Source: the human T2T-CHM13v2.0 reference genome, Homo sapiens. Taken from it: a stretch of DNA of 64,000 bases. Below the pieces are notes generated by a model, which saw only the letters and a list, made by a program, of their open reading frames with translations, was not told where the DNA came from and searched no databases. A program made the position numbers and the translations under genes. The number at the start of each line of letters is the position of its first letter. Within the stretch, counting starts at the first letter, position 1. Shown here piece by piece: positions 10,990 to 47,884 of this stretch. The stretch lies in assembly GCF_009914755.1 (NCBI RefSeq), contig NC_060940.1; one strand, written 5' to 3'.

Positions 10990-11351
10990 AAGAAGATTAA
11001 GTTGGCACTTTTATTTTTACTTCAACCCAAATACTTATTTCTCTCCTCTTACTGCAATGAGCCTCTGATATGGTGACAAATACAAGTAATGATAGTCAAC
11101 ATTTTTGTTTCATTCCTAGTTTCAAGGAGGAAACCTTTTACATTTTACTAATAAATATCATATTTGCTATAGGCATTTTTATCCATACCTTTTATTAGGT
11201 ATTAATTTCCCTTCTCTTTCTAGCTTTTAAGGAACAAATATTGAATTTAATTAAATGTATCTTATCTATTGAGATAATTATATAATATATTCAGATTATT
11301 ATCTTTTATTCTATTCACATGGCAAATTATAGTAATTTTAAAAAGCTCAAC
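10990..11351 (-). mobile_element. Old L1M ORF2 fragment (host element, left part)
   Basis: Antisense L1 RT-region motifs 'gatagtcaacatttttgtttcattcct', 'atctattgagataat'. Confidence 0.65.
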
Positions 11352-11352
11352 T

Positions 11353-14300
11353 GGAGAGATGGGGGACAAGATGGGTGACTAGACAAACCAGGAAACACTG
11401 CTCCCATGGAAGGGACCAAAATATCAGGTAAACCAATGTAATTTGAGCAGGTCATCAGAGAGAAAACACCGAGAGTGGATGGAGAGGTGACACGGACTCA
11501 GAGGCTGAAACAGGGCGAAGCTTGGAACCCTGCATGGTGTACTCAAATTCCAGGGCAAGGTCCTAGCAAAAGGCTCCTGGGGAAGGGTTGAGTGAAGGGA
11601 CTGAGGCGCAGGCCACTCTCACCACTAATCTCCGGGATCCTAGATACAGAGGTTCCTGTGACCCCCATAAACATTTGAGCTAGAAAGGGGATCTGCTGAG
11701 AGAGTAAGCAGAGACAGGCCTTCAGCCAGTGCAGAGTCCAGGGGCTTTTGTCTGTGGAGCAGCTCCGGTGGAGTGGAACCATAGGCACCCATCCCCCAGG
11801 GCTCCCCATCTCCCTCTGAGAAGCTCTAGCCCTAGCTGACTGCTGGGCCAGGAGAGAAGAGAACTAGCTTCTCCATGGGAATGGGGTGTGTGTGTTCTGC
11901 AGGCTGCTCACCAGCCCCTTGCTATGCTTCTGCCTGGCTGTCCGGCAGGAGCATGTGCCCAGTACAGTCTCTGCTTCCCAACCTGGGTGCTTTGCTCCAC
12001 CTGAGTACTTTTCCAGTGACCTGGGAGAACTTTGGATCCCCCAGTACAGCCAGAACCCAACACTAAGCCATGGGCCAGTCAACACTAGAGAGTGCTAAGC
12101 TGAGATCTGTGCCAGAACTCAGACTGGGGAAGAGCCCCAACTCTCAGAGCACTGACAGGGGTGAGACATACAGGTTTGTGGGCTGTTGTGGGAGCAGGGT
12201 GTGCCTTTCTTTACAGGGCCAGTCCAGAAATGGTGTGGCCTATCTCACTGCTTCAGCCTCTACCCAATGAGTCCCATAGCCAAGAACACCTAACATAAGA
12301 AACATGGGTGTGGTGCCAGTGATTGGAGGGGCTCCCCCAAGGTCCAGGGGCAGACCTGGTGAGGAGGTCAATTCTCTCTTCCTTACCAATGTAGAGCACA
12401 TCTGCAAATATGAGGAAATACAAAAGAGACACATGGCTAAGAGCCTATCAAACAGCCATTACTCTTAAATGCCAACTACTGGATAGCAGTTCAGCCTACA
12501 CCACCAAAAATATTCTGCTAACACCTGTGAACCCAAGAGTAAGAATCCAGCCACATGTAAAAACCCTGTACAGAGCCTTGGCCCTCTGAAAGCATATAGA
12601 AACTAAGCCAACTGAGTACACTTATCTTACACCACAATTGAAAGAACACCAACCTTCCCAGATAAGAAAGAATCAGTGCAAGAACTCTGGAAATTAGAAA
12701 GGCCAGAGTGTCCTCTTACCTCCAAATGAACCCACTGGCTCCCTGGCAATGGTTCTTAACCACACTGAACTGGTAGACATAGAATTCAGAATCTGGATGA
12801 CAAGGAAGCTTATTGAGATTTAGAAGAAAGTTGAAACCCAACCCAAGGAATCCAAGAAATCCAGTAAAACAATACAAGAGGTGAATGATAAAATCACCAT
12901 TTTAAAAAATAACCTAACCGAGCTTCTGGAACTGAAAAATTCACTACAATAATTTGATAATACAATCAGAAATATTAACAGAAGAATAGACCAAGCTGAG
13001 AAAAGAACCTCAGCACTCAAAGACCAGTTCTTCAAATCAACTCATCAGATAAAATTTTTTAAAAAACTGCAGAAATTAACAAAACCTCTGAGAAATATGG
13101 GATTATGTAAAGAGAAAAAAACCTATGGCTCATTTGCATTCCTTAGAAGAAAAGAAAGCACCTCGGAAAATATATTTGAAGATATAGTCCACAAAGATTT
13201 CCCTAATCTCACTAGAGAGGTTAACAGAAAAATTCAAGAAATACAGAGAACCTTGGCTAGATACTGTACAATATAACCATCTCCAAGACACATGGTCATC
13301 AGATTCACCAAGGTCAACACAAAAGAAAAAATTTTAAAGGCAGCTAAGAAGTTATATAAAAAGAAAATCCTTTTAGGCTAGCAGTGGACTTCTCATCAGA
13401 ACCTTACAAGCCAGAAGAGATTAGACGCCTAATTTCAGTATCCTTAAAGAAAATAAATTCCACCAAGGAATTTCATATCCCACCAAATGAAGCTTCATAA
13501 ACAAAGGAGAAATAAAATCCTTCTCAGACAAGCAAACACTGAGGGAATTCGTTACCACTAGACCACCCTTACAAGACATGGAATTGAAAGAACGACACTT
13601 GCTACCACAAAAACACACTTAAGCACATAGCCCACAGACATATAAGGCAACTACACAATCAAGTCTACATAACAACCAGCTAACAACACAATGACAGTAT
13701 CAAAATATTACATATCAATATTAACCCTGAATGTAAATGGGCTAAATGCCCCACTTAAAATACATAGAGTGGCAAGCTGGATAAAAAGACAAGCCAACCA
13801 TCTGCTGTCTTCCAAAGAACCGTCTCATATAACAAAACCCACACAAGCTCAAAGTAAAGGTGTGAAAAAGACTTACCATGCAAACAGAAAACAAAAAAGA
13901 GTTGGAGTTGCTATTCTTAGATCAGATAAACAGACTTTAAAGAAGGACATTGCCTAATGATAAACAGTACAATTCAATAAGAGTTAACTATTCTGAATAT
14001 ATATGCACCCAATATTGGAGCATCCAGATTCATAAAATAAGCTCTTAACCTACAAAAAGACTTAGACAGCCACAGAGTGACAGTGACAGACTTCAACACC
14101 TCACTGACAGAGTTAGACAGACCATCGAGGGGGAAAACTAATAAAGAAATTCTGGACTTAAACTCAACACTTGACAAATTGAACCTAATAGACATCTATG
14201 GAATATTCCACCTAACCACCATAGAATATACATTCTTCTCCTCTGTGTGCAGAATATATTCTAAGATCAACCACATGCTCGGTCATAAAGCAAGTCTCAA

Positions 14301-14392
14301 TAAATTCAAAAAAATCAAATCATACTCAAGCACACTCTCTGATCATGATGCAACAAAAATAGAAATCAATACCAAGAGGATCTCTTAAAACT
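11353..14392 (+). mobile_element. L1PB-like LINE-1: 5'UTR, decayed ORF1 and ORF2 endonuclease start; 3' part absent
   Basis: 5' end 'gggggacaagatgg..gactagac'; ORF1 remnant ~12650-13620; ORF2 start 13691 MTVSKYYISILTLNVNGLNAPLK; EN motifs DFNTSLTELDR and SKINHMLGHK in ORF 14077-14388; frameshifts and stops throughout. Confidence 0.9.
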
Positions 14393-14467
14393 ATTATTAT
14401 TTATACCTATTATATTATGTGTAAACAATAATAGTTATATATTATATAATAATATATACAATAATAG

Positions 14468-15133
14468 AACTATATTGTAATAGTTATCCGGATAACTATA
14501 TTGTAATAGTTATCCGGATAACTATATTGTAATAGTTATCCGGATAACTATATTGTAATAGTTATCCGGATAACTATATTGTAATAGTTATCCGGATAAC
14601 TATATTGTAATAGTTATCCGGATAACTATATTGTAATAGTTATCCGGATAACTATATTGTAATAGTTATCCGGATAACTATATTGTAATAGTTATCCGGA
14701 TAACTATATTGTAATAGTTATCCGGATAACTATATTGTAATAGTTATCCGGATAACTATATTGTAATAGTTATCCGGATAACTATATTGTAATAGTTATC
14801 CGGATAACTATATTGTAATAGTTATCCGGATAACTATATTGTAATAGTTATCCGGATAACTATATTGTAATAGTTATCCGGATAACTATATTGTAATAGT
14901 TATCCGGATAACTATATTGTAATAGTTATCCGGATAACTATATTGTAATAGTTATCCGGATAACTATATTGTAATAGTTATCCGGATAACTATATTGTAA
15001 TAGTTATCCGGATAACTATATTGTAATAGTTATCCGGATAACTATATTGTAATAGTTATCCGGATAACTATATTGTAATAGTTATCCGGATAACTATATT
15101 GTTATAGTTATCCGGATAACTATATTGTTATAG
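14468..15133. repeat. Minisatellite, 26-bp unit (ATAGTTATCCGGATAACTAT-ATTGTA), 25 copies
   Basis: CCGG recurs every 26 bp from 14488 to 15112; units identical except the last (GTTA for GTAA). Confidence 0.97.
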
Positions 15134-15194
15134 GCAACTATATTGTTATAGTTATATATGTTATAGTTATATATAGTTATATACAATATAGTTA

Positions 15195-15500
15195 TATGTG
15201 TATGTGATACATATATAACTATGTATGTATGTGATACATATATAACTATGTATGTATGTGATACATATATAACTATGTATGTATGTGATACATATATAAC
15301 TATGTATGTATGTGATACATATATAACTATGTATGTATGTGATACATATATAACTATGTATGTATGTGATACATATATAACTATGTATGTATGTGATACA
15401 TATATAACTATGTATGTATGTGATACATATATAACTATGTATGTATGTGATACATATATAACTATGTATGTATGTGATACATATATAACTATGTATGTAT
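15195..15500. repeat. Minisatellite, 27-bp unit ATGTATGTATGTGATACATATATAACT, ~11 copies
   Basis: Directly visible; gives the periodic MYVCDTYIT translation. Confidence 0.95.
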
Positions 15501-15767
15501 TATAGTTACATACAATATAGTTATATATGTATATATACATATAGTTATATATAATACATATATAACTATATATGTATTACAGTTACATACATTATAGTTA
15601 TATATGTATAAAATACATATATAGTTATATATAATTGTTATAGTTATATACATTATAGTTATATATAGTTATATATGTATTATATATAGTTATATATGTA
15701 TTATAGTTATATAAAATATAGTAATATATGTATATAACTATAGTGTTTTTTATATATAAATATATAA

Positions 15768-15811
<44 letters not shown>
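15500..15811. repeat. Degenerate AT-rich low-complexity tract ending in (TA)n(CA)n
   Basis: Repeated 'atagttatat' motifs followed by dinucleotide runs. Confidence 0.9.
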
Positions 15812-15812
<1 letters not shown>

Positions 15813-16260
15813 ACTTAGATTCTTAGGATAAAACCAACTTAGTTTTTTATTCCTTTTACACATCTTTTGAAAAATTTTTTGCCAGAATTTTGGATTAAAA
15901 TTGTTATGTCTATGTTTTTGAGATATTGGTCTATAAGTTTCCTTCATTGTACTGCTTTGTCAGATTTTGCTTTCAAGGTTATAGTGACTTTATTAAGTGA
16001 ATCAAGAAATTTTCTGTCTGTTTGCATAAAACTGGTGTATATTCCCTAATTGTTTGGACCAATTCGATAGTAAATCCATTTGAGGCCAGGATTTCTTTGT
16101 GAGAAGGTTTTTATTGAGGATTCTTTTTTTTTTTTTTTTTTTACTAGATATAAGACCATTCAGATTTTCTCTCCCTTCCTAAGTCAGTTTTAATAAGTTA
16201 TAATTTATTAATACCTCCATTTTATCTTAATTATCAAAAGTTTCTACTTAGATTCTCATC
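15812..16260 (-). mobile_element. Old L1M ORF2 fragment (host element, right part)
   Basis: 'cttagattcttaggataaaaccaactt...gagatattggtctataagtttcc...tagtaaatccatttgaggcc' continues the antisense L1 that breaks at 11351. Confidence 0.7.
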
Positions 16261-18664
16261 CTCCTTCTGCTACTTTCTACATGTTTTTCTCCTCTTTGCC
16301 TTGAACTACTTTTTAATTGGAGATTGCTTTGAGTGAAAAAGTGACTGAGACTATTGAACTTCTCTGCACTTTCATTCTCTTCAGCATCTTGACCCCTCAA
16401 GTCTTCCTACCAATGCCTTCAAAAAGATATCTTTTTAAGTTTTATTCAGCATTGCTAGTTTCTTTTAGCAGGAGGATCGGTCTACCCATCCATGTTAGTT
16501 CAAAATGGAAATGCTCTCCATATTGTTAAAATAAATATCTGACTGATAAATGTAAATTACATGCTGTAATTAATCTATCTCGTATCAAAATAATGTTACA
16601 AATTTTTTTTGTAGGAAAAACACTGATTATTCTTATATTGCATTCTATTTCTCCTCTATTATATAGCAATCTCCTTAGACACAGAGACCATGTATCTCTG
16701 CATAGAAAAATAAATTTGAATCCAGTTATTGAATACTTATTCATGCAATTCAAAAAACACTAGAATTATTACTTTCAGCATATTAGAGATTCTCAATTAA
16801 TGTAGTCTATTATTATCATTATTATTATAAGTGTATTATTCTATTTCTCCAATGCAATTCTCAGTAAAACAATAAAGTTGTTACACTAATAAAATTTGCT
16901 GAGACTGACTTAGCTATTTATCTAATTCGGTAAACTTAGTTTAATGGACAAAGCAATCATCATGTAAAACTAAGGTCCTTAATTCTTCTCTTACCTGAAA
17001 AACAGACTATACTTATCACCACTTATGTTAATCTCCTTATTAAGATCAAGAATTATTAAGTTTTACACTAGACACATACATACAACAGTGTAACAGTCAT
17101 CAAATACATATGCTAGCAAAGGAAAGTTTATGTAGACAAATGAAAAATAATCTGATAAATTCAAAATTTAACCAAATTTGTCCACCCTCTTTGTTTAAGT
17201 ATTATAGATAAAGGTAAATTTTAACGGATGTAAACTCTTCCCATTTGTCTGAATATAAGCCAACTTCATTAAATGCTTTCTGAGTTTCTGTTTTGTTTTG
17301 AGAGCCCACAGGGTCAAGCAGTTAGTATTTGCCAAAATATCCCATGTCATTAAGACAGAAATTAAGTCATCTGGACCAAACTTTGTAGGAACAGCCATAT
17401 TTTGAAAAAATTAAGATAAATTCTGGCTGCAGGTCGAAATGATAGTGATAGCAAAACTTTAACTGCTAGTTAGCCTGGTTAAACTCTGCTCTGAAATGTC
17501 TTTTGTTAACCTGATCTCTCTATTTAGAACTCCATTACCCTGTGTTTAAAACAAAGGCACCTCATTCAAAGCAGGCTATAATTGCAGTCTTTCAGCAAAA
17601 CAGCATTTACCAAAACATGTCCTTTAGAATGTGGTACAATTTATCACCCCCACGGTGCATGACACATAATTACATTTGTCACCGCTTTAATTGGATGTTA
17701 CATGTCAGTAATGACTCATCAGCCCCAGAAGTTATGAAAGATGAATTCTCACTACCATACTTTAGAATTTGCTCCAAAAATAAAACTAAAGAAGAGTTTA
17801 TTTCTCACTCGGGGTAGAAGCTACATTTGGGAGAAAAACTAATCTGTGCTTTAGAAAAATAACTATGTATTTCATTTATTGACAGCAAGATGATTGCCTG
17901 CAATGTTTCTCATTACCCCTAGATCACAAATGAGTAAATCACTGTCAGACAAACCAAGGTTAAAACTGTGTGTGTATATTTTAACATGATGCAAAAAAAA
18001 AAAATTAAAAAACCTCCATCACTAGGAGAGAATTGTTAATTTAGAGAATTTTTCAGATTCTGTGATCTGATAAGCTCTGCAACCCAGTCATCGCTGAAAT
18101 TAAATTAGGTTTCAGAAAATGAATATTTCATTTTTAAGATTCTGTTGCTTGGAGACCTGGGAAGACAAAGCTGGTTTAGCCCAAGACAGGAGAGATGTTA
18201 TAAGGGGCAGCATTTTCTATGGGAAACTGCCAGAGAATGCCTAGGAAAAATCACACAACGGAGACAAACAATGATGATGGTACAAATGGATTCATTACAA
18301 ATGCCACAATGCATGTTATTTCTTCTAAGCTGAAGAAGTCTCACTCTACCCTTCACCCGTGTTATTCAGACTTAAATTGGGAAAAATATCATCACACCGT
18401 AGACCCAATCTACCTACCTTTTGTTTTAACAGACTCAAGGGGGAAAAAAAGCAAAGCAAATGTAACCTCAGTGGCAAAGCAAAGGGTGCTTTCTCTACCA
18501 AGGATGTTCACTAAGTTATAGGGATATGTAAACCCAATTCTACATGTTGCTTAGGTCTATAGTCACCTGGCTACATGTATTTTAATCAGCATCATAAACA
18601 TTGATTACACTCCTTTCACTATCAGTGAAGGTACATGGTTTTAAGAGATCTTCCACATTTTGGG

Positions 18665-41262: not shown

Positions 41263-41370
41263 TTAGCTGTTGTTTAAAGTTAACTAAATCCCGATCTGAT
41301 GTTTATTCTCTTATTTTTAGCTATTGTTTAAAGTTAACTAAATCCCGATCTGATGTTTATTCTCTTATTT
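41263..41370. repeat. 54-bp tandem duplication
   Basis: 41263-41316 and 41317-41370 differ at one base. Confidence 0.95.
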
Positions 41371-43396
41371 TTATTTTTAATTTAATAAGTGCTTCACGTG
41401 ACTTTTGAGTTATAGCTGACTGCCCTAGCTCACATTTTAGTGCCAGAGTAAGTATCAAATGGTAGATTTATTTCTCTTTTTTATAAAAGAAAATCAATAA
41501 CCAGTTTGCAATGCCTTTGGTAGAAATTCAATGACTAACATAAGGTTTTACTTTATCAAGAAGCTGGGATATTGTCAACAGCTATCCAAGTAACTGATTC
41601 AAAATCCAATTGTGAAAACATTTACTGGGCACTCTCTGCATGCAAAGCAGTGAGAAGGTGCTGGGAAGATTAAGAAAAATCAGGTGCAGTCTCCCTCCTT
41701 AGGAGAAATGGCACAAAATAGCATGGTCATGGAACCAGAGCAGTGATTCTGACATGCATTTCAGAGACAAACATGGTGGAGGCCATGTGACTTAATCAGC
41801 AGGATGGAACTAAAATAGGGCTGCCTAGGATTATACAAACTATGCTGTTGCTGCTGGAGATTCCCAAACTGTGGCCTACCAATGTCATGGCAGGTGGGGG
41901 ATAAGTGGACGATGAATCCCTTCAGTGCACCATTCAAGGGCTTTCAGCCTGAAATAAGCTAATACTATGAGCAGAATGCCCAGGAAGGGTTTATGAAGGG
42001 TATACCATACTCCCAAGATCAAAATCACCTCTTGAGGAATCCCTCCCAAAGGACTCACAGTCATCTTCCAAAAGGCTTTTAGAAAAAACTAAAGGATATG
42101 TTTTTCCAAGAGCCTGATGTCTTAGTGGTCTGGAAGACATCCTGGGAATTGTCTGGAAAGGAGGCATTGGACCTCTAGCTGTGATGAGATATAGGAATAA
42201 GGAGTGGTGGGCTAAGTGTGCATCTAGTATGCAAAATAGAGAGAACAGTAAGTGTGATGAGAATAAGAAGGTAGTTGCCCAAAAGCAAATTTAATTCTCT
42301 CCTACTCCTACTGGAGAGAAGAACAAGGGATTTGGAGGAAACACAGCAATGCAGCATCCACAGGCACATAGTATATGCTCAATAAATATTTTTTTTCAAA
42401 TAATATACAAATATAGAAATAAGGTCTACAAACATCACTTGAGAAGCACAGGATGTGATTCACTCTTCAGAGCCAAATTTTATTTGTGGTATCACTTTAA
42501 AAGGCAGCAGCAGTAGTGCTACTGAGACCATTTCCGCTGGGAGAGAAGTTCTGAGGACTCTGAAAACTTATAGGAAGAGGCAGGCAAGACCAGAGATAGT
42601 GATAAGTAAAGTGATTAACTGAGGAGCTGTGTGGGGGGAAAAGGATGTCTCAACTTAGCCAAGGTTCAGAGATAACAGAAGCTTTTCACCAAATGAAAGG
42701 TGACTGAGTGACCAACTGTCACTGACTTCAGGAATAACTTGCAGACAGAACAGGTAGACTCAGACAGCATTCTCAGGTGAAGACCTCAAGGGAATTCAGC
42801 TAGTTGAGGCAGCCCCAAAACCTGGTGGGAATCCAGCTCATTTCTGGGAAACCTGAACAAGAACGGATTCATAGATCTCAAAATTGTACAAAGAGAAATT
42901 TACCAATAAACACAGGAAAAAATAAAATTTCCTGGAAATATCAGCTACCAACAAATATATTTTCAGGTGTGCTTCAGGATTAAGGTTTATAAAAGTGTGT
43001 TAAGAAATGAAAATATTGTTTGTGTGGGTGGTGGTTGTGTTCCTGGGGCAAAAAAAAGAGAGAGAGAGAGAGAATTGCAACTCCAACTCTTCTTTTTATA
43101 TATGAGAAAACTGAAACTTGGAATGATAAAGTGACTCACTCAAAGTCTCCACACCTACTTGGTAGCAAGTCTTTATTCATAGCTGCATATAATATATCAC
43201 CACCTGACATATTATATATTCTTCTATTTGAATATTCTTTCCATTAAAATGGGACTTTATTTGCTCACAATAATATTCCCAGAAGCTAGAACAGTGCCCG
43301 GCACTAAGGAAATACTCAGTAAACATGTGCTGAATGAGACAATGATTTAAATCTTTAGACTCATATTCCAATGCCATTTAGATTACACCATCCTGT

Positions 43397-47418: not shown

Positions 47419-47645
47419 TGTTATGGGCTTCATTGTGTTCCCCCCAAAGTTTGTACACTGAAGCCCTAAACCCCAGTAGTTTAGAATGAAACTGTATTTG
47501 AAAACAAGGTCTTTAAAAGGTGATTAAGTTAAAATGAAGCCACTGGTATGGTTCCTTACTCAATCTTACTGCTGTTCATCCAAGAAGAGGAAATTTGGAC
47601 ATACAAAGAGATGCCCAGGGATGCAGGCACGCACGTGCATGCGCG

Positions 47646-47676
<31 letters not shown>

Positions 47677-47884
47677 AGAAAAGCCCATGTGAGTACAGAG
47701 TGAGAAGACAGATATCTGCAAACCAAAGAGAGAGTCCTCAGGAAAAAGAAAAAAAAAAACCTGCTGACAGCTTGATCTTGGACTTCTAGCCCCTACAAAT
47801 GTGAGAAAATAAATTTCTAAATTTCTGTTGTTTAAGGCACCCAGACTGTCATATTTTGTTATGGCAACCCTAGCAAACTAACAT
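47419..47884 (+). mobile_element. MLT1A/B/C-type MaLR LTR
   Basis: tgttatggg..'gaagccctaaaccccagta'..'cttgatcttggacttctagcc'..'atggcaaccctagcaaactaaca'; an MLT2-like 3' fragment follows to ~48062. Confidence 0.8.
47627..47677. repeat. Alternating purine-pyrimidine tract with (GC)7 and (AC)n
   Basis: 51 bp of uninterrupted RY alternation. Confidence 0.9.

What the first reader, a model, noticed from the sequence alone, without database searches (positions are those of the whole stretch)
14468..15133. Array of 25 perfect 20-bp palindromes (26-bp unit) able to form large hairpins or cruciforms
Seen: each unit is ATAGTTATCCGGATAACTAT (its own reverse complement) plus a fixed 6-bp ATTGTA spacer. 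Twenty-four units are identical, and the last variant extends the palindrome to 22 bp. The whole ~0.65-kb array therefore nearly matches its own reverse complement and can fold in many registers. Established: hairpin-forming AT-rich minisatellites underlie the fragile sites FRA10B and FRA16B, and palindromic AT-rich repeats extrude cruciforms. Inference: this is a recently expanded, probably hypervariable and replication-stalling VNTR.
Basis: partly seen in the sequence, partly recalled or inferred. Interest (0 to 1): 0.7.

Follow-up and report, generated by a model that had tools for sequence, protein, structure and literature searches.

The report
AT-rich hairpin minisatellite inside broken L1
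A 0.65-kb run of 25 near-identical short palindromes sits in the broken end of an old LINE-1 element on human chromosome 16; it is likely an ordinary, probably length-variable hairpin-forming minisatellite like several already described, and far shorter than the repeats that cause visible fragile sites.

Summary
In detail: 25 perfect 20-bp palindromes at 26-bp spacing (14480-15123), 24 identical units plus one variant, all 25 exact genome matches at this locus. The reading needs two corrections. The array is only 77% identical to its reverse complement, so it is not a giant palindrome or PATRR. The predicted stable fold is not the CCGG-centred palindrome (-3.3 kcal/mol) but a 20-bp stem between neighbouring units with a 6-nt loop (-18.2). 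The array is one block of a 1.4-kb AT-rich compound repeat that replaces the 3' part of an L1 nested in an older antisense L1. Flanking direct repeats and inverted half-units point to birth by fold-back and slippage. The closest known case is MSY1 (25 bp, hairpin-forming, block-structured, hypervariable). Palindromic AT-rich arrays are common genome-wide; CCGG-centred ones occur at 4 loci. It is far shorter and less AT-rich than fragile FRA10B/FRA16B alleles. Small cruciforms in a supercoiled plasmid are predicted; polymorphism and fork stalling are untested. Verdict: new member of a known kind, an unusually clean one.

The parts
14468..15133 (.). 26-bp minisatellite, 25.6 copies, 25 perfect 20-bp CCGG-centred palindromes (14480-15123), 73% AT, 25 CpG
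14480..14525 (.). Example of the predicted stable fold: two neighbouring palindromes pair into a 20-bp stem with the 6-nt spacer as loop (-18.2 kcal/mol)
14394..14467 (.). Left AT-rich flank (89% AT); ends in a degenerate unit that lacks the central 10 bases of the palindrome
15134..15198 (.). Linker with a further degenerate unit (direct repeat of the array's 11-nt end at 15136-15146) and an inverted 14-nt half-unit at 15182-15195
15199..15500 (.). Second homogeneous array: 27-bp unit, 11.2 copies, 100% matches, no CpG, weak folding (-0.156 kcal/mol per nt)
15501..15811 (.). Right AT-rich degenerate repeat (88% AT) with an inverted half-unit at 15511-15524, ending in a 25-nt TA run (from 15776) and a CA run where the L1 tail would be expected
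   Evidence: position of the tail inferred
11353..14393 (+). Younger L1: 5' UTR, ORF1 (Pfam Transposase_22 and Tnp_22_dsRBD) and the first ~0.7 kb of ORF2; homology ends where the AT-rich repeat begins
   Evidence: (71-73% to two other copies over ~3 kb); the labels 5' UTR and ORF2 start are recalled
11060..11352 (-). Older antisense L1 fragment, left of the insertion; ends at a TTTT/AAAAA site (11336-11344) and CAACT (11348-11352)
   Evidence: the endonuclease-site consensus is recalled
15811..16117 (-). Older antisense L1 fragment, right of the insertion, continuing the left piece; starts with CAACT (15811-15815), a probable remnant of the target-site duplication

Best explanation
This is a single-locus, AT-rich 26-bp minisatellite whose unit is self-complementary; it lies in the broken 3' end of an L1, likely grew there by fold-back and slippage, and is likely a neutral, length-variable repeat of the MSY1 type. 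Steps: (1) Shown: an L1 (11353-14393) interrupts an older antisense L1, and a 1.4-kb AT-rich compound repeat stands where its 3' part should be. (2) Inferred: that AT-rich tract, probably seeded by the L1 tail, turned over by slippage and template switching, leaving direct and inverted half-units on both sides. (3) Shown: the unit read from GG to CC is a 10-bp-arm stem-loop, so head-to-tail duplication makes a spacerless CC|GG palindrome at each junction. (4) Inferred: one unit, bounded by a short direct repeat, was amplified to 25 copies within the last several million years. (5) Predicted: in transiently single-stranded DNA, neighbouring units pair as 46-nt hairpins in many registers of similar energy; this would misalign strands in whole-unit steps and so change copy number and keep the units identical. 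In duplex DNA only small cruciforms of 2-6 units centred on the AT-rich spacer are predicted, and only at strong negative supercoiling.
For: Array, purity, uniqueness. L1 context: ORF1 Pfam hits E 2.7e-8 and 1.3e-10; homology to other copies ends at 14391-14393 in 3 of 3 fetched copies; left and right old-L1 pieces abut within about 25 nt in 5 of 11 relatives. Direct repeat at 14468, 15118 and 15136, and inverted 14-nt half-units at 15182 and 15511; flanking direct repeats are a described route of minisatellite birth (PMC3389668, passages). Folding: single unit -3.3, pair -18.2, chain of pair-hairpins -230.2, one long hairpin -223.5 kcal/mol. MSY1 in the same assembly: 25 bp, 66.6 copies in blocks of 26/26/14, 82% AT, self-complement 0.88, -0.31 kcal/mol per nt, against 0.78 and -0.347 here; its published mutation rate is about 3-3.8% per generation with hairpin-driven slippage proposed (PMC2599865, passages). 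The class is common: tandem palindromes with the same arms on chr1, 2, 6, 11, 13; 1509 matches for three spaced copies of a different 10-bp CpG-centred AT palindrome.
Against: Polymorphism was not measured; one assembly only. The locus is not among the 22 chr16 rows of the 467 human-specific VNTRs in PMC8327921 Table S1, though that list excludes VNTRs inside repetitive elements. One AT-rich, apparently self-complementary VNTR there (SMG1 row) is nearly fixed at 434-476 bp, so hairpin units do not guarantee variability. The age bound is loose (under about 6-7 Myr, or 10-12 Myr if unmethylated; recalled mutation rates). Left old-L1 alignments are weak: scores 114-159 against shuffle maxima of 90-117, 1 of 11 not above control, 4 of 11 placed 300-1000 nt away, 1 of 11 overlapping by 45 nt. 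Only 5 nt of the expected target-site duplication survive. The order of L1 truncation and repeat growth is unknown. Among 14 comparison loci none had as many identical palindromes of 20 bp or more (25 here; next 10 at FRA16B, 6 on chr2), so this one is extreme; those loci were chosen through motifs, not sampled at random.
Confidence: 0.75

Rival explanations
1. The array is a real fork-stalling, break-prone element in cells: hairpins on the lagging strand or transcription-driven cruciforms are cut by structure-specific nucleases, and rare long alleles would form a rare fragile site.
For: Strong folding. The 6-nt loop is within the range below 9 nt that blocks forks in yeast, shown there for long Alu arms (PMC8053094, passages). 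A 921-bp FRA16B insert formed structures and paused polymerase (PMC2875025, passages). It lies in an intron of a predicted lncRNA (hub annotation). AT-rich flanks surround it.
Against: The longest perfect stem is 20-21 bp, shorter than at FRA16B (40), a chr6 locus (69) and a chr13 locus (34). Each extra pair of units costs about 21 kcal/mol, and a full-length cruciform is hundreds of kcal/mol unfavourable in a 3.7-kb plasmid model. '16q12' has 0 occurrences in a fragile-site review (PMC9714581). Cruciform motifs were negatively correlated with ssDNA signal in ape cells, cause unclear (PMC12637528, passages). In the FRA16B plasmid assay, constructs 300 bp or more from the origin showed no significant loss of replication efficiency.
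Confidence: 0.12
2. The array is a copy-number- or methylation-dependent regulatory element (25 CpGs, 50 CCGGAT half-sites) acting on nearby lncRNAs or on the CASC22/TOX3 region.
For: 25 CpGs in 666 bp, obs/exp 2.1 against 0.17 for the window. CASC22 and TOX3 are named GWAS signals for menopause age, PCOS and breast cancer pathways (PMC13175888, one passage). CASC22 begins about 9.4 kb downstream (hub annotation).
Against: No annotated enhancer overlaps it (hub annotation). No canonical WGATAR and no GGAA on either strand. It sits in L1 debris. CpG-centred AT-rich arrays are common, and similar CCGG arrays on chr2 and chr12 carry CTGG in their other units, as expected from passive CpG decay. 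The 12 listed papers of 33 for TOX3/VNTR/16q12 showed no such link in titles or abstract starts.
Confidence: 0.05
3. The purity and length are specific to CHM13 (recent somatic or culture expansion, or assembly polishing), and typical alleles are shorter or more mixed.
For: 24 of 25 units are identical and the neighbouring array is 100% pure; only one assembly was seen.
Against: No N in the window; degenerate units in register at both ends show a natural history; equally pure blocks occur at MSY1 and on chr2. The 1.4-kb tract is short enough for long reads to span (general knowledge).
Confidence: 0.08

Closest known systems
MSY1 (DYF155S1), Y-chromosome minisatellite
   Same: Unit 25 vs 26 bp; AT-rich (75% published, 82% measured; 73% here); unit predicted to form a hairpin alone or with neighbours; pure blocks of identical units; single array.
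   Different: No sequence kinship seen; MSY1 has no CpG and no perfect palindrome of 10 bp or more, 48-118 copies, proven hypervariability, haploid. This array has 25 perfect CpG-centred 20-bp palindromes, is autosomal, has 25.6 copies and unknown variability.
FRA16B and FRA10B AT-rich minisatellites
   Same: AT-rich, hairpin-prone units inside a larger compound AT-rich tract; the FRA16B tract in this assembly also has 24 perfect palindromes of 20 bp or more.
   Different: FRA16B lies 13 Mb away at chr16:71.12 Mb, is 93% AT and is fragile only when expanded up to 2000 copies; FRA10B is 91% AT and fragile above 5 kb. This array is 73% AT and 0.65 kb.
PATRRs (PATRR11, PATRR22, PATRR17, PATRR8)
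   Same: AT-rich and self-complementary; cruciform-capable in supercoiled DNA in principle.
   Different: PATRRs are near-perfect single palindromes of about 200-595 bp with over 90% AT (PMC7999016, passages). Here 77% symmetry, a mismatch block every 26 bp, 73% AT, longest perfect stem 20-21 bp.
Other CCGG-centred AT-rich arrays in the same assembly (chr2:123.66 Mb, chr12:82.88 Mb, chr13:105.20 Mb)
   Same: Same CC|GG junction logic; the chr2 array has 6 identical 24-bp perfect palindromes at 34-bp period, self-complement 0.88.
   Different: chr2 is shorter (249 bp); chr12 has 23 CCGG units but no perfect palindrome of 20 bp; chr13 has 3 units.

Membership tests
Minisatellite / VNTR | Head-to-tail unit of 10-100 bp | tested here: met
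   26-bp period, 25.6 copies, 99%; size class from PMC3389668
Minisatellite / VNTR | Copy number varies between individuals | not testable with these tools
   One assembly only; not found in the supplements searched
AT-rich hairpin-forming minisatellites (MSY1 type) | About 75% AT or more, unit near 25 bp | tested here: met
   73% AT, 26 bp against 75% and 25 bp
AT-rich hairpin-forming minisatellites (MSY1 type) | Unit or adjacent units predicted to form a hairpin | tested here: met
AT-rich hairpin-forming minisatellites (MSY1 type) | Variant units arranged in pure blocks | tested here: met
   24+1 units of 26 bp, then a separate pure block of 11 units of 27 bp; unlike MSY1 the second block has another unit
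AT-rich hairpin-forming minisatellites (MSY1 type) | High intra-allelic germline mutation rate | not testable with these tools
   needs pedigrees or sperm typing
Rare distamycin/BrdU fragile-site minisatellites (FRA10B, FRA16B) | Expanded array of several kb | tested here: not met
   666 bp (1418 bp with the whole tract) against over 5 kb or up to 2000 copies; other alleles unseen
Rare distamycin/BrdU fragile-site minisatellites (FRA10B, FRA16B) | About 90% AT or more | tested here: not met
   73% against 91% and 93%
Rare distamycin/BrdU fragile-site minisatellites (FRA10B, FRA16B) | Inducible metaphase gap at the locus | not testable with these tools
   0 mentions of 16q12 in PMC9714581
PATRR | One near-perfect palindrome of several hundred bp | tested here: not met
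   77% best self-complement; longest perfect stem 20-21 bp
PATRR | Over 90% AT | tested here: not met
   73% against the definition in PMC7999016
PATRR | Recurrent translocation breakpoint | not testable with these tools
   no breakpoint data here

The most novel reading that the evidence does not exclude
A methylation-switchable structural minisatellite: the only long array found in the genome (by the motif probes used) with a perfect CpG-centred 20-bp palindrome in every unit, hypervariable in length, in which CpG methylation tunes hairpin or cruciform formation, and whose long alleles break or change transcription in the CASC22/TOX3 GWAS region, invisible to short-read studies.
Probability: 0.05. 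Interest if true: 0.7.

Novelty: new member of a known kind. Interest (0 to 1): 0.27.

Why it matters
If the best explanation holds it matters little biologically: it is one of many AT-rich palindromic minisatellites. Its use is as a clean test case. It is an autosomal MSY1-like array with one pure unit, one CpG per unit and a weakly folding sister array 65 bp away as a built-in control, so it can test whether stem stability predicts VNTR mutation rate and whether CpG methylation changes it. It would matter more if length varied widely and tracked the CASC22/TOX3 association signals, or if multi-kb alleles existed.

Tried and rejected
Giant palindrome or PATRR: rejected. Full-length cruciform: rejected on energy (two-state model with recalled supercoiling constant 1100RT/N and junction cost 0-10 kcal/mol). 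Structured RNA family: 0 Rfam matches in 11000-17000. Dispersed family or mobile unit: all exact matches of the unit, in both registers, are at this locus; with the centre free, 34 of 59 matches lie elsewhere, and the listed ones have other centres (18 strand-rows not listed). Canonical GATA or GGAA sites: none. A 14-bp overlap with a synthetic operator in an E. coli circuit paper (PMC6129954) was the only hit of the motif search in print and is taken as chance. Pfam found nothing significant in 13 of 15 stretches, including all ORF2 and old-L1 pieces, so those labels rest on DNA homology and recall. Catalogue look-ups were negative: PMC8327921 Table S1 (all 22 chr16 rows seen; its file 1 was not searchable), PMC11760257 and PMC13308034 supplements (motif in several phases, gene names). 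The Sulovari 2019 list and the Bois and Jeffreys review could not be read and may bear on prior description. Earlier scan notes were not available.

Full report
Observation. The array is as described. There are 25 exact 20-bp palindromes every 26 bases from 14480 to 15123, none elsewhere in the window at up to 3 mismatches, and none in 100 shuffles. TRF gives 14468-15133, 25.6 copies, 99% matches; in that register 24 units are identical and one differs by a base. The last palindrome is 22 bp, and the last two spacers are ATTGTT. All 25 exact genome matches are here, as are all 24 matches of the unit read as a stem-loop; the tool warns that such counts can be lower bounds. The array is 73% AT and holds 25 CpGs, obs/exp 2.1 against 0.17 for the window.

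Correction 1: symmetry. The best ungapped match to its own reverse complement is 77%, because each 6-bp spacer mismatches. The longest perfect stem is 20 bp with a 6-nt loop, 21 bp at the variant end. PATRRs are near-perfect palindromes of several hundred bp with over 90% AT (PMC7999016, passages). This is not one.

Correction 2: what folds. One palindrome alone gives an 8-bp stem of -3.3 kcal/mol. Two neighbours give a 20-bp stem of -18.2. The minimum for the array is a chain of such pair-hairpins (-230.2); one long hairpin is close (-223.5). Ten units fold far better than shuffled DNA (z -24.7) and than 60 arrays of shuffled units (mean -23.7, best -58.7, observed -93.6). In a two-state cruciform model with a recalled supercoiling constant and a junction cost of 0-10 kcal/mol, a one-unit cruciform needs sigma -0.066 to -0.107 and a two-unit one -0.027 to -0.045. 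In a 3.7-kb plasmid at sigma -0.06, forms of 2, 4 and 6 units are favourable at all three junction costs, while 12 units or more are strongly unfavourable. So plasmid cleavage is predicted, centred on the AT spacer. Extrusion in chromatin would need strong local supercoiling (inference).

Setting. Upstream, 11355/11359-14393 aligns at 71-73% with two other copies, and homology stops at 14391-14393 in 3 of 3 copies fetched; the best of 41 other matches to the last 706 bp is 78% over full length. Pfam confirms L1 ORF1 (E 2.7e-8, 1.3e-10) in 2 of 15 stretches; the other 13 gave nothing significant. Downstream, 15827-16000 matches the same kind of element on the opposite strand, about 1 kb further along it. 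In 11 relatives of that older piece, the stretch left of the younger L1 abuts it within about 25 nt in 5, overlaps by 45 nt in 1, lies 300-1000 nt upstream in 4 and is not above control in 1; the left alignments are weak. CAACT flanks the insert on both sides (11348-11352, 15811-15815) and a TTTT/AAAAA site precedes it (consensus recalled). Thus a younger L1 was inserted in an older antisense L1, and a 1418-bp, 79% AT compound repeat stands in place of its 3' part. The TA and CA runs next to the right junction lie where the tail would be. A tail origin is inferred, and the order of truncation and repeat growth is unknown.

Birth and growth. The 11-nt end of the unit recurs in register at 14468, 15118 and 15136, preceded by shorter degenerate cores. 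Exact inverted 14-nt half-units lie at 15182 and 15511. Short flanking direct repeats are a described route to minisatellites (PMC3389668, passages); the inverted pieces suggest template switching (inference). Read from GG to CC the unit is a stem-loop with 10-bp arms, so tandem duplication alone makes the spacerless palindromes. A second pure array (27 bp, 11.2 copies, no CpG, -0.156 kcal/mol per nt) follows 65 bp later, so the tract has amplified units twice, one of them without strong folding. No substitution in 24 units bounds homogenisation to under about 6-7 Myr (95%), or 10-12 Myr if unmethylated, with recalled rates. That fits a young array but does not show ongoing change.

How unusual. 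With the four central bases free, 59 matches occur, 25 of them here. Two spaced copies of the inner arms give 79 matches, with arrays on chr1, 2, 6, 11, 13 and others. Three spaced copies of another 10-bp CpG-centred AT palindrome give 1509 matches, the first 50 already at 14 places on chr1. CCGG-centred AT triplets give 49 matches at 4 loci: chr2 (4), chr12 (21), chr13 (1) and this one (23). Of 14 comparison loci this one has the most identical perfect palindromes of 20 bp or more and among the strongest folding per base (-0.346; -0.348 and -0.371 at two shorter arrays), but several have longer perfect stems. The comparison set came from motif probes, so the rank is indicative. Six further loci were viewed; two of them (L019, L020 not scored) overlap this theme.

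Known relatives. MSY1 is 75% AT, has a 25-bp unit predicted to form a hairpin alone or with neighbours, variants in blocks, 48-118 copies and about 3-3.8% mutation per generation, with hairpin-aided slippage and sister-chromatid conversion proposed (PMC2599865, passages). Located by its published primer, it measures 66.6 copies, self-complement 0.88, -0.31 kcal/mol per nt, against 0.78 and -0.347 here. The array works like MSY1 by anatomy; the mutation rate is untested. FRA16B lies 13 Mb away and is 93% AT. FRA10B and FRA16B are fragile only at several kb (PMC9714581 and PMC2875025, passages). In favour of some stalling, a 921-bp FRA16B insert paused polymerase, though constructs 300 bp or more from the origin replicated normally, and loops under 9 nt block forks at long yeast palindromes (PMC8053094, passages). 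Against it, cruciform motifs were depleted of ssDNA signal in ape cells, for unclear reasons (PMC12637528, passages).

Prior description. A full-text motif search found one unrelated paper. The locus is not in the 22 chr16 rows of PMC8327921 Table S1, which excludes VNTRs in repetitive elements, nor in the held supplements of PMC11760257 and PMC13308034. It is probably in genome-wide repeat catalogues that were not searchable here. CASC22 papers (13 listed; passages of two) did not mention a repeat in what was seen. Other papers were seen as listings only, except PMC2674676 (passages).

Verdict. A real, unusually clean AT-rich hairpin minisatellite in L1 debris, a new member of a known kind. 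Best explanation 0.75; in-cell fragility 0.12; CHM13-specific purity 0.08; regulatory role 0.05. Interest 0.27.

Noticed in passing
window 15199-15500: Second pure minisatellite (27 bp, 11.2 copies, 100% matches, no CpG, weak folding) right beside the palindromic array; a natural control for mutation-rate comparison.
   Followed up: partly
L052 (chr2:123.66 Mb) 795-1043: 34-bp array with 6 identical 24-bp perfect CCGG-centred palindromes; its first unit has CTGG instead, as from CpG decay.
   Followed up: partly
L053 (chr12:82.88 Mb) 904-2408: 35-bp AT-rich array, 45 copies, with 23 CpG-bearing units in one block and CTGG units in the next.
   Followed up: partly
L039 (chr6:68.59 Mb) about 600-1000: AT-rich repeat with a 112-bp perfect palindrome and a 69-bp perfect stem; a better cruciform candidate than the array studied.
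   Followed up: no
L055 (chr16:71.1155-71.1185 Mb): FRA16B motif region: 20 exact matches of the 30-base motif, an 80-bp perfect palindrome, and an adjacent 37-bp array that folds at -0.371 kcal/mol per nt.
   Followed up: partly
L058 and L059 (chrY 7.24 and 23.58 Mb): The MSY1 flanking primer matches twice; one site carries the 66.6-copy array, the other only a short remnant and no array.
   Followed up: partly
L020 1-981 and L040 1-1801: Long, pure 36-bp AT-rich arrays (27.5 copies at 97%; at least 51 copies at 96%) on chr5 and chr13, running off the fetched stretches.
   Followed up: no
window 47640-47680: (CG)n run followed by (CA)n, a Z-DNA-type motif.
   Followed up: no
window 41263-41385: Near-perfect 54-bp tandem duplication (98% matches).
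   Followed up: no
window 14483-14496 (each unit): The central 14 bp equal the core of a synthetic operator in an E. coli circuit paper (PMC6129954); only 7 bp of information, taken as chance.
   Followed up: yes
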